A stretch of 64,000 bases of DNA, from NCBI RefSeq assembly GCF_003018115.1, contig NZ_CP027457.1. One strand, 5' to 3'. The notes beneath the pieces are model-generated. The model was not told the DNA's origin. It searched no databases and saw only the letters and a program-made list of their open reading frames with translations. Of the stretch, positions 26,953-64,000 are shown piece by piece (position 1 is the first letter of the stretch; each line of letters begins with the position of its first letter). The position numbers were made by a program, and so were the translations under genes. Source of the DNA: Escherichia coli (lineage in GTDB: Bacteria; Pseudomonadota; Gammaproteobacteria; Enterobacterales; Enterobacteriaceae).

Positions 26953-27017
26953 TTGATTTTATTAGTAACAAGTATTTTTTATATTTTAATAATATATTTA
27001 AAGCAGATAATAAAAAA

Positions 27018-36538: not shown

Positions 36539-38074
36539 ATGAGCAGCTCACTTCCTGACGATATCAATGCACTGAAACGTCTCCTTGCCGAACAGGAGGC
36601 GCTGAACCGTGCCCTGCAGGAAAAGCTGAACGAGCGTGAACGCGAAATAGACCATCTGCAGGCACAGCTGGATAAGCTGCGCCGGATGAACTTCGGCAGC
36701 CGCTCGGAAAAAGTCTCCCGTCGTATCGCACAGATGGAAGCTGACCTGAAGGCACTTCAGAAAGAAAGTGATACCCTTACCGGTCGGGTTGACGACCCGG
36801 CCGTGCAGCGCCCGCTGCGTCAAACCCGCACCCGCAAACCGTTCCCCGAATCACTCCCCCGCGATGAAAAACGGCTGCTGCCGGCAGCGTCATGCTGCCC
36901 GGAATGTGGAGGCTCGCTGAGCTATCTGGGTGAGGATGCCGCCGAACAGCTGGAGCTGATGCGCAGCGCCTTCCGGGTTATCCGGACTGTACGTGAAAAG
37001 CATGCCTGTACTCAGTGCGATGCCATCGTGCAGGCCCCCGCGCCTTCACGGCCCATCGAGCGGGGTATCGCAGGACCGGGGCTGCTGGCCCGCGTGCTGA
37101 TCTCAAAGTATGCAGAGCACACCCCGCTGTACCGCCAGTCTGAAATGTACGGCCGCCAGGGCGTGGAGCTGAGTCGTTCACTGCTGTCGGGCTGGGTGGA
37201 TGCATGCTGCCGGCTACTGTCACCGCTGGAAGAAGCGCTTCAGGACTATGTGCTGACTGACGGTAAGCTCCATGCTGATGACACGCCTGTCCCGGTGCTG
37301 TTGCCAGGCAATAAGAAAACGAAGACCGGGCGGTTATGGACCTACGTTCGTGACGACCGTAACGCCGGGTCAACGCTGGCGCCGGCGGTGTGGTTCGCTT
37401 ACAGCCCGGACAGAAAAGGCATCCATCCGCAGACCCATCTTGCGGGGTTCAGTGGTGTACTGCAGGCGGATGCATACGCCGGGTTCAACGAGCTGTACCG
37501 GGATGGCCGGATAACGGAAGCCGCCTGTTGGGCTCACGCCCGCCGTAAAATCCACGATGTGCACGTTCGCACCCCGTCAGCCCTGACGGAGGAAGCGCTG
37601 AAACGGATCGGCGAACTGTACGCCATCGAGGCAGAGATAAGGGGAATGACGGCGGAGCAGCGCCTTGCCGAACGTCAGTTGAAAACGAAACCGCTGCTGA
37701 AATCCCTGGAAAGCTGGCTGCGTGAAAAGATGAAAACCCTGTCGCGACACTCAGAACTGGCGAAAGCGTTCGCATACGCCCTGAACCAGTGGCCGGCGCT
37801 GACGTACTATGCAGATGATGGCTGGGCTGAGGCGGACAATAACATCGCTGAAAATGCGTTGCGGATGGTCAGTCTGGGCCGCAAAAACTACCTGTTCTTC
37901 GGTTCGGATCATGGAGGAGAGCGGGGAGCGCTGCTGTACAGCCTGATCGGGACGTGCAAACTGAACGGAGTGGAGCCAGAAAGCTACCTCCGCTATGTCC
38001 TTGACGTCATAGCCGACTGGCCGATAAACCGGGTCGGCGAACTGCTCCCCCTGGCGCGTAGCACTGCCGACTGA
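36539..38074 (+). CDS. IS66-family transposase TnpC (orf3)
   Basis: 511 aa, N-terminal leucine zipper, Cys-x2-C zinc motif, DDE core. Confidence 0.9.
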
Positions 38075-38115
38075 ATAACACATCCCCGTCAATACGGTTC
38101 TTGCTGCACGCTTAC

Positions 38116-38123
38116 TCAAAACT
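38116..38123. repeat. 8-bp target site duplication TCAAAACT (right copy)
   Basis: Matches left copy at 35653-35660. Confidence 0.7.
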
Positions 38124-38593
38124 GATGTTATATTTAGCTGAACAAAAATCAGCCACTTTGTTCTTCCTCATCGTCTTTTATTTCGTGGTATGAGTAATTG
38201 CAGTAGTTAAAGAAAATTTCTTATGCTCCGTCATGAATTTCCTCAGGTGTTGCGTCATCGTCCACTTCGAATACATCCTCAAAATCTCCACCAGCTATTC
38301 CCGTTTCAATAATAATTTTGAACTTTCGCATTTCACTACCGCCCTTTCGGGCGGCCTCCTGATGTTCTGAGGGTGCAGAAATCCATCCGGTTAAGGATTA
38401 AATTTTATTTACAGAACTGAATTTAATTATTCAGATATACGTATCTGTAGCCTTACGAATCTACTCACTGGATGCCTCTTTCATAAAAATAATCCAGTGG
38501 GTTTTATCGTTTTTTCCCTGTTCGTTGACAGATAACAGGTTTTCTGTCTGTCAGTGCCAGAATCTGGCTTACCGGTATTTGCGTTTCATTCCA

Positions 38594-38950
38594 TTAAAAA
38601 ATCAGAACGCCGTGCGGCCTCAACACCCGAAAGGCTTCTTTAAATCTCTGTCGCGAATCATCACGCCAGGCATCTTTATTCAGCCGTCCATATTTCTTTC
38701 CCATCCAGGCGTTATCACCAACACTCTCAAGATGCGGAGGGTCTAATACAACCATCGAAAAAGATGCGTCTGCAAATGATAATGCACGAAAATCTGCGAT
38801 AATGTCAGGGCTGATAATCAAGCGTCTCCCATTGCGTAATGTGTATCCTTCTTTTCTGATATCGCTGAATATCGCCCGTTCGTCAGACTTATCGAACCAG
38901 AACATGCGGCTGCCACAGCACATATCAAGAATGGTTGCCGGTGCACTCAC
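38594..38950 (-). pseudogene. Truncated SAM-dependent methyltransferase-like ORF (motif I then DPPH)
   Basis: 118 aa is too short for a full Rossmann MTase; in-frame TAA followed by about 32 further sense codons. Confidence 0.4.
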
Positions 38951-60034: not shown

Positions 60035-61291
60035 ATGTTCCGCCGTCTGCTTATCGCAACAGTCGTCGGTATTCTCGCGGCCTTTGCCGTTGCCGGGTTT
60101 CGTCATGCGATGCTGCTACTGGAGTGGTTGTTCCTCAATAATGACTCCGGCAGTCTGGTCAATGCAGCGACAAACCTTTCCCCCTGGCGACGGCTGCTAA
60201 CTCCGGCGCTCGGCGGACTGGCGGCGGGTTTGTTGCTGATGGGCTGGCAGAAATTTACCCAGCAACGCCCTCATGCGCCGACCGATTACATGGAAGCGTT
60301 GCAAACCGATGTGCAGTTTGATTACGCAGCAAGCCTGGTTAAATCGCTTGCCTCTCTGCTGGTAGTAACCAGCGGCAGTGCAATTGGTCGCGAAGGTGCG
60401 ATGATTCTTTTAGCTGCCCTTGCCGCCTCCTGTTTTGCCCAACGTTTTACGCCACGCCAGGAGTGGAAATTATGGATCGCCTGTGGGGCCGCGGCGGGAA
60501 TGGCTGCGGCCTATCGTGCCCCGCTTGCTGGCAGTTTATTTATAGCCGAAGTGCTGTTTGGCACTATGATGTTGGCCTCTCTCGGCCCGGTGATTATTTC
60601 CGCCGTCGTGGCATTGCTGGTTAGCAATCTGATTAATCATAGCGACGCGTTACTCTACAGCGTACAACTCTCAGTGACGGTTCAGGCTCGTGACTATGCG
60701 CTGATTATCAGTACAGGTGTGCTGGCAGGTCTGTGCGGACCACTGTTGTTAACGTTAATGAACGCCTGTCATCGTGGATTTGTGAGTCTCAAACTTGCGC
60801 CGCCCTGGCAACTGGCACTGGGCGGGTTGATCGTGGGTCTGCTTTCCCTGTTCACACCTGCAGTGTGGGGCAACGGCTATAGCACCGTACAATCCTTTTT
60901 AACCGCCCCGCCACTGTTAATGATCATTGCCGGGATCTTCCTTTGTAAACTGTGTGCCGTGCTGGCGAGTAGCGGTTCCGGCGCACCCGGTGGTGTCTTT
61001 ACACCGACGCTATTTATCGGTCTTGCCATTGGCATGTTGTATGGTCGTAGCCTGGGATTATGGTTCCCTGATGGCGAAGAAATTACGCTTTTACTCGGAT
61101 TGACCGGGATGGCGACACTGTTGGCGGCGACCACGCACGCGCCGATTATGTCGACGTTGATGATATGTGAAATGACCGGGGAGTATCAGCTACTCCCCGG
61201 TTTATTGATTGCCTGCGTAATTGCGTCGGTAATCTCGCGGACGTTACACCGTGAGTCTATCTACCGCCAGCACACTGCGCAGCATAGCTAA
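60035..61291 (+). CDS. clcB: Voltage-gated ClC-type chloride channel ClcB
   Basis: ORF track 59975-61291 trimmed to [14 protein letters not shown], 418 aa; GSGAPGG-type selectivity motifs. Confidence 0.9.
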
Positions 61292-62063: not shown

Positions 62064-63284
62064 TTAACCCTGCAACAGACGAATCAACAAAGAACCGTTA
62101 TACATCGCGTCTTTTACCAGCGCAGCGCCTGCCATCGTGCCCTGGTTAGAGAACTGAGTACTCTCAACGCTAATGTGCTGACTATACGCAGGAAGGGCCT
62201 GCTGACGGATGCTGTCTGAGATCACCGGGAAGAGGATATCTGCCGCTTTACTTAACGGTGAGCCAATCAGTATTTTTTGTGGGTTAAATAAATTCACCAT
62301 GATGGCAAGAATGCGCCCTACATGCGCGCCCACCCCGGTAATGATGTCTTTTGCCAGCAGATCGCCGCGCAATGCCGCCTGACACAATGAGTCCACGGTT
62401 AACGGTTGCCCATGTAACATCGAGCTCATGGATTGATTGAGACGCAGCTGTGCCAGCTCAAGAATACTGTCCACACTGGCGATGGTTTCGAGGCAGCCGT
62501 GGTTCCCGCAATAACAACGTTTCCCATACGGGTCGACCTGTGTGTGGCCTATTTCCACGAGGCTACTGCTGCCTGCGTGTAGCAGATGACCATCGGTAAT
62601 GACGCCCGCCCCCACGTTGTGATCGATAACCACCTGAATCACATCGCGCGCCCCGCGTGAGGCACCAAACAAGGCCTCTGCCATCGTCCATGCGCTGATA
62701 TCATGCTGAATATAAACCGGAACGCCGGTATGCTGCTCCAGAGCCTCGCCGAGCGGCATCTCTTTTACATCCTCGTAGAACGGCATGCGATGTACAATGC
62801 CATTTTCCGTATCAATAATTCCCGGCAGGGTTATGGCAATCGAAGTTAGACGCTCAAGTTTTTTCTGGTGGCGGATAAAAAACTGATCGATATGGGAAAT
62901 GATACGATCCAGCAATGGCGAGTCATCTTTTAACGCCAGTTCCTGCGACTCTTCCACCACCAGTTTGCTGCTCAGATCGCGCAGAGCAAGGAAAATCTCC
63001 CCGCGACTAATGCGCAGAGAAAGATAGTGCCAGGCTTCAGTTTCAACCACCAGCCCCACCGCCGGACGGCCACGGTTCCCCGCTTCTTTGATTTCCAGCT
63101 CTTGCACCAGGTGTGCTTCGAGCATCTCACGGACAATTTTAGTGATACTGGCAGGAGCCAGCTGCGCCAGACGGGAAAGATCGATACGCGAGACTGGACC
63201 AAGCTGATCAATCAGGCGATAAACCGCGCCCGCGTTGGTCTGCTTTATTTGATCAATGTGCCCAGGCTGGTTTTCAGCAACCAC
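62064..63284 (-). CDS. mlc: ROK-family global repressor Mlc (DgsA)
   Basis: 406 aa; N-terminal HTH and ROK sugar-kinase fold with Cys zinc motif; non-ATG start. Confidence 0.9.
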   Translation of the reverse strand: MVAENQPGHIDQIKQTNAGAVYRLIDQLGPVSRIDLSRLAQLAPASITKIVREMLEAHLVQELEIKEAGNRGRPAVGLVVETEAWHYLSLRISRGEIFLALRDLSSKLVVEESQELALKDDSPLLDRIISHIDQFFIRHQKKLERLTSIAITLPGIIDTENGIVHRMPFYEDVKEMPLGEALEQHTGVPVYIQHDISAWTMAEALFGASRGARDVIQVVIDHNVGAGVITDGHLLHAGSSSLVEIGHTQVDPYGKRCYCGNHGCLETIASVDSILELAQLRLNQSMSSMLHGQPLTVDSLCQAALRGDLLAKDIITGVGAHVGRILAIMVNLFNPQKILIGSPLSKAADILFPVISDSIRQQALPAYSQHISVESTQFSNQGTMAGAALVKDAMYNGSLLIRLLQG

Positions 63285-63295
63285 CGCATACTCCC

Positions 63296-63320
63296 TATAT
63301 TTTCGCGCTCCGAAATAATC
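63296..63320. promoter_or_regulatory. Mlc/NagC-type operator (TATTTT-N9-AAATAA) in the mlc promoter
   Basis: CTATATTTTCGCGCTCCGAAATAAT palindrome immediately upstream of mlc; fits known autoregulation. Confidence 0.5.
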
Positions 63321-63418
63321 TGTAGGCTATGGTGAAGCACTTCAATACGTGTCGTCAAATTTTTACTTAGGCATGTGATTAACAGCACATTTTTCGGGCT
63401 TTTTCGCTGAAATTTCCC

Positions 63419-64000
63419 TCACCTGAGAGCATTCAGCAGATGAATACGAAAGTTACGCGCAGCTGGACTTTGTTCATGATGTTTCGGCCAGACCAACCAC
63501 ATTTCAGAAACCGCATCCTCTTCAGCAATCGGCACCCAGCGCATTTCGTTGAGCTGAACACGTTTAAATGACGCAGGCAAAATTGAAACACCCAGACCGG
63601 CGGAAACCAGACCGATGATGGTCATTGCCTCGCCCACCTCCTGAGTGATGACGGGTGTCAAATGGTAACGTCGCATCAGTCCGAGAATATCGTCATACAG
63701 CCCTGTCCCGACGTGCGGATCAAAAAAGACAAAGGGTTCTTTCGCCAGTTCAGCCAGCGTTACATTCGGGTTATTTGCCAGGGGATGATCGTGCGGGATC
63801 ATCGCCATAAGCGGTTCATGGACGATGACTGCGTGTTCAAGCGTCTCCGGTAACGCTGTGTTACGCAGCAATCCCATATCCAGCGTTCCTTCAATGAGCG
63901 GAGCGATTTGCTCGCGAGTGTTCATTTCGCGGGTTTGTAAATGGACATCAGGATAATCTCGGCGAAACAGCGATAACGTATCAGACACCGCCCGAATAAA
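63419..64000 (-). CDS. ynfL: LysR-family transcriptional regulator, partial (N-terminus beyond window end)
   Basis: C-terminal substrate-binding domain sequence; ORF continues past position 64000. Confidence 0.6.
   Translation of the reverse strand, partial: FIRAVSDTLSLFRRDYPDVHLQTREMNTREQIAPLIEGTLDMGLLRNTALPETLEHAVIVHEPLMAMIPHDHPLANNPNVTLAELAKEPFVFFDPHVGTGLYDDILGLMRRYHLTPVITQEVGEAMTIIGLVSAGLGVSILPASFKRVQLNEMRWVPIAEEDAVSEMWLVWPKHHEQSPAARNFRIHLLNALR

What the first reader, a model, noticed from the sequence alone, without database searches (positions are those of the whole stretch)
63285..63418. Mlc-type operator upstream of mlc
A TATTTT-N9-AAATAA palindrome lies a few nucleotides upstream of the mlc start, as expected for autoregulation.
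Basis: partly seen in the sequence, partly recalled or inferred. Interest (0 to 1): 0.15.

Follow-up and report, generated by a model that had tools for sequence, protein, structure and literature searches.

The report
Known Mlc operator before mlc
This is the already described binding site through which the E. coli glucose-uptake repressor Mlc shuts down its own gene; it is real, strongly conserved and ordinary.

Summary
The window is E. coli chromosome. The stretch 63285-63418 is the mlc-ynfL intergenic region and is 134/134 identical to K-12 MG1655. The motif TATTTT-N9-AAATAA is present exactly at 63298-63318. The full 23-bp site is 63297-63319 (ATATTTTCGCGCTCCGAAATAAT, centre 63308), 12 nt upstream of the mlc GTG and abutting the Shine-Dalgarno sequence.

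It meets the published criteria for Mlc sites: TT/AA at +/-5,6, AT-rich imperfectly symmetric arms, and A/T rather than C/G at +/-11. An arms-only matrix built from five other Mlc sites ranks it first in the 64-kb window (about 0.05 expected by chance).

Across 80 Enterobacteriaceae genomes 17 of 23 columns are invariant and +/-11 stays A/T. None of 49 four-fold degenerate sites in mlc is invariant.

The site sits just downstream of, or over, two weak candidate promoters, with a conserved CRP-like site upstream. This matches the published picture of promoters P1 and P2 plus an Mlc site.

Nothing is new. A second exact motif match inside the mlc coding sequence is explained by an invariant peptide plus Escherichia-specific codon choice.

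The parts
63297..63319 (.). 23-bp Mlc operator ATATTTTCGCGCTCCGAAATAAT (on the mlc sense strand: ATTATTTCGGAGCGCGAAAATAT). Centre 63308; TT at 63302-63303 and AA at 63313-63314 (positions +/-5,6); A and T at +/-11.
   Evidence: Sequence; pattern match; criteria from PMC4288165 and PMC1874608; arms-only matrix rank 1; 17/23 columns invariant in 81 sequences; identical to MG1655 1668577-1668599.
63374..63389 (.). CRP-like site TGTGATTAACAGCACA, 9 of 10 matches to the TGTGA-N6-TCACA core, centre 63381.5.
   Evidence: the match is not rare by itself (3 found, 2.3 expected). It is strongly conserved in 81 sequences. It lies about -70.5/-71.5 from the candidate P2 start and -58.5 from the candidate P1 start. 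The functional assignment is inferred.
63329..63358 (-). Candidate promoter P1: -35 TTGACG (63358-63353), 18-bp spacer, -10 CACCAT (63334-63329). Predicted start about 63322-63323, which puts the operator centre at about +16.
   Evidence: Relaxed hexamer scan; both hexamers conserved. [quoted passage not shown] The start site was not measured here.
63317..63345 (-). Candidate promoter P2: -35 TTGAAG (63345-63340), 17-bp spacer, -10 CAGATT (63322-63317). Predicted start about 63310-63311, inside the operator, so the operator centre is at about +3/+4.
   Evidence: It lies 12 nt downstream of the P1 candidate, which matches my recollection of P1(+1)/P2(+13) in Shin et al. 2001. The -10 region is only partly conserved. 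Inferred.
63291..63296 (-). Shine-Dalgarno AGGGAG, 6 nt upstream of the GTG start.
   Evidence: Sequence; conserved.
62064..63284 (-). mlc (dgsA) coding sequence, 406 aa, GTG start; a ROK-family repressor.
   Evidence: The GTG start context is conserved in all 81 sequences.

Best explanation
The site at 63297-63319 is the autoregulatory operator of the E. coli mlc gene.

Mlc is a ROK-family repressor with an N-terminal helix-turn-helix. It binds this 23-bp quasi-palindrome. Each half-site contacts the invariant TT/AA at +/-5,6 and the AT-rich arm, and the linker arginine reads the A/T pair at +/-11 in the minor groove.

The operator lies about +5 to +27 relative to the upstream weak promoter P1 and spans the start point of the downstream promoter P2. 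Bound Mlc would therefore sterically block RNA polymerase binding or open-complex formation at P2, and block initiation or promoter escape at P1. The result is negative feedback that keeps Mlc scarce.

When glucose is transported, dephosphorylated EIICB-Glc (PtsG) sequesters Mlc at the membrane. The operator is then vacated and mlc is derepressed along with ptsG, ptsHI, manXYZ and malT. A conserved CRP-like site about 70 bp upstream of P2 adds cAMP-CRP input.

Shown here:
- the presence of the motif and its rarity
- its fit to the Mlc rule
- its identity to the K-12 sequence
- very strong purifying selection

Taken from the literature: autoregulation, the two promoters, sigma-32 use of P2, and sequestration by PtsG.

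Inferred: the exact start sites and the steric mechanism.
For: - Exact motif at 63298-63318.
- TT/AA at +/-5,6 and A/T at +/-11, the published signature that separates Mlc sites from high-affinity NagC sites; the TT-9bp-AA motif with AT-rich +/-7 to +/-11 and imperfect dyad symmetry.
- A leave-one-out arms matrix from the ptsG (x2), ptsH, manX and malT sites, taken from MG1655, ranks the site first in the window. Its score is within the training range and 0.05 are expected by chance.
- In 80 genomes from many Enterobacteriaceae genera (85-99% Mlc identity), every one carries the site at the same place.
- 17/23 columns are invariant, all arm positions are invariant or A<->T only, and the adjacent spacer 63320-63324 varies.
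- 0 of 49 four-fold degenerate sites in mlc are invariant in the same genomes, with a mean major-allele frequency of 0.62.
- The intergenic region is 134/134 identical to MG1655.
- The literature states that mlc is repressed by Mlc itself, has promoters P1 and P2 (P2 also read by sigma-32), and has a binding site for its own product. Six native Mlc sites are known. The rule scan finds exactly six strong candidates in the five known target regions, counting overlapping one-base-shifted registers as one; it also reports further lower-ranked AT-rich hits and the intragenic mlc match.
- The two best promoter-like hexamer pairs on the mlc strand put the operator centre at +16 and +3/+4.
Against: - No binding experiment can be done here, and the primary papers (Decker et al. 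1998, Plumbridge 2001, Shin et al. 2001) were not retrievable. The exact footprint and start sites therefore rest on secondary statements and on my memory.
- A matrix that includes the central nine positions ranks the site only 10th in the window, with about 3 expected by chance. The motif is low in information, and AT-rich mobile DNA in the window gives comparable hits.
- The standard promoter scan finds no sigma-70 promoter in the region, so the promoter placement is by weak matches only.
- The five training sites were chosen by my rule-based scan and by recollection, not from a curated table.
Confidence: 0.95

Rival explanations
1. The site is primarily a NagC operator. NagC is the paralogue that recognises nearly the same quasi-palindrome, so mlc would be under amino-sugar control rather than autoregulation.
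For: The Mlc and NagC logos are essentially indistinguishable apart from +/-11, and overproduced proteins cross-repress.
Against: High-affinity NagC sites carry C/G at +/-11. Here +/-11 are A and T, and they stay A/T in all 81 sequences. No cross-regulation occurs at physiological protein levels. The literature assigns the site to Mlc.
Confidence: 0.02
2. The conserved quasi-palindrome acts at the RNA level. It would form a hairpin, or act as an A/U-rich translational enhancer, in the short mlc 5' leader next to the Shine-Dalgarno sequence, instead of or in addition to binding protein.
For: If P1 starts near 63323 the whole operator is transcribed. Its 3' arm (AAAAUA) abuts the Shine-Dalgarno sequence. 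The conservation seen cannot by itself tell DNA constraint from RNA constraint.
Against: The predicted leader fold is no more stable than shuffles (-7.7 kcal/mol, z = 0.00) and its minimum-energy structure does not pair the two arms. There is no Rfam match. The arms are invariant rather than covarying, and the conserved letters are exactly those of the Mlc rule. Transcripts from P2 would start inside the element.
Confidence: 0.03
3. It is a chance AT-rich near-palindrome with no function.
For: The motif has low information. The full-length matrix gives about 3 equal or better hits per 64 kb of random sequence, and a second exact pattern match inside mlc appears to be coding-driven.
Against: The arms-only score is expected 0.05 times per 64 kb. 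The site is kept in 80 of 80 other genomes with 17/23 invariant columns, while four-fold sites in the adjacent gene are saturated with change.
Confidence: 0.01

Closest known systems
The E. coli K-12 mlc (dgsA) autoregulatory operator. From my own knowledge: Decker et al. 1998 Mol Microbiol 27:381 and Shin et al. 2001 J Biol Chem 276:25871. Summarised in PMC2634768 and PMC4393010.
   Same: Same locus, and the intergenic sequence is 134/134 identical to MG1655. The 23-mer corresponds to MG1655 1668577-1668599. The inferred layout also agrees: two weak promoters 12 nt apart with the site centred about +16 of the first.
   Different: Nothing detectable. The window strain differs from K-12 only by 18 nucleotide changes and one amino-acid change (S122 versus L122) inside mlc.
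Other native Mlc operators of E. coli: ptsG (two sites), ptsHI P0, manXYZ and malT.
   Same: 23-bp quasi-palindrome, TT-N9-AA, AT-rich arms, A/T at +/-11, and comparable arms scores of 17.5-19.8 against 18.0 here. The ptsH site (TTATTTTGATGCGCGAAATTAAT) also shares the GCGCG-type centre.
   Different: This site controls the repressor's own gene. It is a single site, unlike the pair at ptsG. It lies downstream of or over the start points and directly next to the ribosome-binding site.
NagC operators (nagE-nagB, glmU, chb and others).
   Same: Same overall 23-bp architecture and the invariant TT/AA at +/-5,6.
   Different: High-affinity NagC sites have C/G at +/-11. This site has A/T there in every genome examined, so it is not a NagC-type site.

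Membership tests
Mlc operator (ROK-family Mlc/NagC 23-bp site) | Invariant TT at -6,-5 and AA at +5,+6 around the centre of symmetry (TT-N9-AA). | tested here: met
   TT at 63302-63303, nine bases, AA at 63313-63314. These columns are invariant in 81 sequences.
Mlc operator (ROK-family Mlc/NagC 23-bp site) | AT-rich arms at +/-7 to +/-11 with imperfect dyad symmetry. | tested here: met
   All 14 arm positions are A/T; only 4 such 23-mers exist in the 64-kb window. 14 of 23 positions are self-complementary.
Mlc operator (ROK-family Mlc/NagC 23-bp site) | A or T at +/-11, the feature that distinguishes Mlc sites from high-affinity NagC sites. | tested here: met
   A at 63297 and T at 63319. Only A or T occurs at both positions in 81 sequences.
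Mlc operator (ROK-family Mlc/NagC 23-bp site) | Scores like the other native sites with a matrix that does not include it. | tested here: inconclusive
   Arms-only matrix: rank 1, score 18.0, within the training range, 0.05 expected. Full 23-position matrix from only five sites: rank 10, about 3 expected.
Mlc operator (ROK-family Mlc/NagC 23-bp site) | Overlaps or lies just downstream of the promoter of a gene shown to be Mlc-repressed. | tested here: inconclusive
   Location in the mlc 5' region is shown. The literature says mlc is repressed by Mlc and has P1 and P2. The start sites were only predicted from weak hexamer matches, and the standard scan found none.
Mlc operator (ROK-family Mlc/NagC 23-bp site) | Physical binding of Mlc (gel shift or DNase I footprint), with release by EIICB-Glc sequestration. 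| not testable with these tools
   [quoted passage not shown] The primary papers were not retrievable.
Mlc operator (ROK-family Mlc/NagC 23-bp site) | Conserved at the orthologous position in related genomes. | tested here: met
   Present in 80 of 80 Enterobacteriaceae loci with 17/23 invariant columns, against 0/49 invariant four-fold sites.
High-affinity NagC operator | C or G at +/-11. | tested here: not met
   A/T at both positions in all sequences.
CRP (cAMP receptor protein) site, for the accompanying element at 63374-63389 | TGTGA-N6-TCACA core at a class I distance (about -61.5 or -71.5) from a start site. | tested here: inconclusive
   The core matches 9 of 10, but this is not rare by chance (3 found, 2.3 expected). 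It is conserved. It lies -70.5/-71.5 from the predicted, not measured, P2 start.

The most novel reading that the evidence does not exclude
In Escherichia only, the second exact TATTTT-N9-AAATAA match inside the mlc coding sequence (62271-62293, 1,027 bp downstream of the operator) might be a weak auxiliary Mlc site. It could cooperate with the promoter operator by looping through tetrameric Mlc and so tighten autoregulation. Its arms score is third in the window, and it uses the rare codons TTA and ATA. However, its synonymous positions vary freely outside Escherichia, and about 0.5 such hits are expected by chance per 64 kb.
Probability: 0.03. Interest if true: 0.3.

Novelty: already known. 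Interest (0 to 1): 0.05.

Why it matters
It matters little as a discovery. Negative autoregulation of mlc through this operator is textbook E. coli carbohydrate regulation: it keeps Mlc scarce enough for PtsG to titrate it when glucose is present.

The useful outcome is confirmation that the first-stage reader can recognise a real low-information operator from sequence alone. A secondary result is a quantitative view of how strongly the site is conserved across Enterobacteriaceae: the arms and the C-G/G-C flanks of the centre are invariant, while neutral sites are saturated with change.

Tried and rejected
- **Full 23-position matrix.** Built from five other Mlc sites, it ranked the site only 10th. 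I rejected it as a test because the nine central columns, trained on ten half-redundant sequences, add noise. The arms-only version matches the published statement that only the arms carry conserved information.
- **Primary literature.** Plumbridge 2001 (DOI and PMC29661) and Shin et al. 2001 are not held. Thomason et al. start-site maps are not held. A search for the operator sequence in papers found nothing. PMC4288165 has no supplements held, and PMC2238713 gave no detail.
- **Standard promoter and terminator scan.** It found nothing in 63000-63700. I replaced it with a relaxed hexamer scan.
- **RNA-level reading.** The leader fold has z = 0.00 and there is no Rfam family, so I rejected it.
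- **Intragenic second match at 62271-62293.** It encodes the invariant peptide NLFNPQKI, and its third-codon positions change freely in other genera: TTA to TTG/CTG/CTC, TTT to TTC, ATA to ATT/ATC. I rejected it as a conserved site.
- **Other high-scoring 23-mers.** The hit at 38404 lies in mobile DNA next to an IS66-like element, and the hit at 26993 lies in the prophage cspB/ynfU/essD region. I treated both as chance hits in AT-rich acquired DNA.
- **More distant relatives.** I did not extend the comparison beyond Enterobacteriaceae (Yersinia, Vibrio).

Full report
**Where we are.** The last 2 kb of the window is 100% identical to several E. coli chromosomes, and it is present in 5,421 of 5,426 complete E. 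coli genomes. RefSeq annotates mlc ('sugar metabolism global transcriptional regulator Mlc') and the LysR-family gene ynfL there, both on the minus strand of the window. In window coordinates, mlc is 62064-63284 with a GTG start, and ynfL ends at 63419. The finding's coordinates, 63285-63418, are therefore exactly the mlc-ynfL intergenic region. That region is 134/134 identical to K-12 MG1655. The mlc coding sequence differs from K-12 at 18 nucleotides and one amino acid.

**The observation.** TATTTT-N9-AAATAA is present without mismatch at 63298-63318. In the 23-bp frame used for Mlc and NagC sites, it is 63297-63319, ATATTTTCGCGCTCCGAAATAAT, centred on 63308. This corresponds to MG1655 1668577-1668599. 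It is a quasi-palindrome: 14 of 23 positions are self-complementary. It ends 12 nt before the GTG and abuts the Shine-Dalgarno AGGGAG at 63296-63291.

**Is it an Mlc-type site?** Brechemier-Baey et al. (PMC4288165) give the rule:
- Mlc and NagC sites are similar quasi-palindromes.
- The only completely conserved positions are TT/AA at +/-5,6.
- All Mlc sites have A/T at +/-11, whereas high-affinity NagC sites have C/G there.

Lim et al. (PMC1874608) describe the consensus as TT-9bp-AA with AT-rich +/-7 to +/-11 and imperfect dyad symmetry. The site here has TT at 63302-63303, AA at 63313-63314, all 14 arm positions A/T, and A and T at +/-11.

To test it against other native sites, I fetched the ptsG, ptsH, manX and malT upstream regions of MG1655. 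I picked out the strongest 23-mers that fit the rule. There are two at ptsG and one at each of the others. With mlc this gives six, the number of native sites quoted. The choice also agrees with my recollection of Plumbridge's tables, but I selected these sites myself rather than taking them from a curated list.

A symmetric matrix built from those five sites gave two results:
- **Arms only:** it ranks 63297-63319 first of about 64,000 positions, with a score of 18.0 against 17.5-19.8 for the training sites. About 0.05 such hits are expected per 64 kb of first-order random sequence.
- **All 23 columns:** it ranks the site 10th, with about 3 expected.

The motif is thus low in information, and the centre is not a reliable discriminator with so few training sites.

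**Conservation.** One scan of the species-representative genome collection with the Mlc protein returned 80 loci at 85-99% protein identity. The genera include Escherichia, Citrobacter, Salmonella, Enterobacter, Klebsiella, Raoultella, Kosakonia, Leclercia, Lelliottia, Kluyvera and Yokenella, among others.

Every locus carries the site at the same place before a conserved GTG start. In an alignment of the 81 upstream regions:
- 17 of the 23 columns are invariant.
- The arm columns are invariant or switch only between A and T.
- Positions +/-11 are never C or G.
- Change is confined to -11, -2, -1, +2, +3, +4 and the last two arm columns. The gap at +10 is an alignment effect of one A more or less before the Shine-Dalgarno sequence.

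The five bases just upstream of the site (63320-63324) and the 3' flank of ynfL vary freely. As a neutral yardstick, none of the 49 four-fold degenerate sites in invariant codons of mlc is invariant in the same genomes, and the mean major-allele frequency is 0.62. The operator is therefore under strong purifying selection.

**Surroundings.** The alignment also shows conserved blocks at three places:
- 63374-63389 (TGTGATTAACAGCACA, 9 of 10 matches to the CRP core)
- TTGACG at 63358-63353
- GAAGTGCTTCACCATAGC at 63343-63326

The CRP-like match is not rare by itself: there are 3 such matches in the window against 2.3 expected. Its case rests on conservation and position.

[quoted passage not shown] A relaxed scan gives two best candidates on the mlc strand:
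- TTGACG-18-CACCAT, with a start near 63322-63323
- TTGAAG-17-CAGATT, with a start near 63310-63311

These place the operator centre at +16 and +3/+4, and the CRP-like centre at -58.5 and -70.5/-71.5. This agrees with what I recall of the abstract of Shin et al. 2001: P1 at +1, P2 at +13, the Mlc site at +16, and CRP stimulating P2 but not P1. I could not retrieve that paper, so the agreement is with memory, not with a checked source. Open reviews confirm only that mlc is repressed by Mlc, has P1 and P2 (P2 also used by sigma-32 polymerase), and has a binding site for its own product.

**Mechanism.** Mlc bound at 63297-63319 covers the P2 start point and the early transcribed region of P1. It should therefore exclude RNA polymerase from P2 and block initiation or promoter escape at P1. 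This step is an inference from position. Relief comes when dephosphorylated EIICB-Glc sequesters Mlc during glucose uptake, which is established knowledge cited. The loop keeps Mlc levels low.

**Rivals.**
- **NagC site:** excluded as the main reading by A/T at +/-11 in all genomes.
- **RNA hairpin or leader element:** not supported. The leader folds no better than shuffles (z = 0.00), the arms do not pair in the minimum-energy structure, and no Rfam family matches.
- **Chance:** excluded by conservation.

**Side observations.**
- The same 21-nt pattern occurs once more, at 62271-62291 inside mlc, with the third-best arms score. It encodes the invariant peptide NLFNPQKI. Outside Escherichia its third-codon positions change freely. 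It is best explained by an AT-rich peptide-coding constraint plus Escherichia-specific codon choice.
- The other strong 23-mers, at 38404 and 26993, lie in mobile-element and prophage DNA.

**Verdict.** This is the known Mlc autoregulatory operator of E. coli mlc, identical in sequence to the K-12 site. Nothing here is new.

Noticed in passing
window 62271-62293 (inside mlc, codons about 331-338): There is a second exact TATTTT-N9-AAATAA match (TATTTTTTGTGGGTTAAATAAAT), 1,027 bp from the operator, with the third-best arms score in the window. It encodes the invariant NLFNPQKI and uses the rare codons TTA and ATA. Synonymous positions vary freely in other genera, so it looks coding-driven rather than a conserved site.
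   Followed up: yes
window 63374-63389: A CRP-like core, TGTGATTAACAGCACA, is highly conserved across 81 Enterobacteriaceae sequences. It lies about 70.5-71.5 bp upstream of the predicted P2 start. The core match alone is not statistically rare in the window.
   Followed up: partly
window 63326-63343: The block GAAGTGCTTCACCATAGC is almost invariant across genera. This is more conservation than a weak -10 hexamer alone would need. It contains CACCATAG, which resembles a sigma-32 -10 element (CCCCATNT), but it is spaced 18 nt from the nearest -35-like TTGACG.
   Followed up: no
window 63285-63430: No intrinsic-terminator-like hairpin lies between the ynfL stop (63419) and the mlc promoters. Read-through from ynfL into mlc is therefore not excluded.
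   Followed up: no
window 38404-38426 and 26993-27015: Two strong Mlc/NagC-like 23-mers have all arm positions A/T. One lies next to an IS66-like ISEc22 element, a DUF7167 gene and a methyltransferase gene; only 94 genomes cover at least 80% of the 1-kb stretch around it (window 37900-38900). The other lies in the prophage cspB/ynfU/essD region. Both are probably chance hits in AT-rich acquired DNA.
   Followed up: partly
window 61244-61291: The convergent genes clcB (+, ends 61291) and the dethiobiotin synthetase paralogue ynfK/bidA (-, ends 61244) overlap by 48 bp at their 3' ends. RefSeq annotates the same overlap.
   Followed up: no
window 63286-63288: An out-of-frame ATG lies 4 nt upstream of the mlc GTG and opens a 14-codon ORF. 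The ATG is not conserved in other genera, whereas the GTG context is.
   Followed up: partly
window 62920-62922 (mlc codon 122): Mlc of the window strain has Ser at residue 122 where K-12 has Leu. This is the only amino-acid difference.
   Followed up: no
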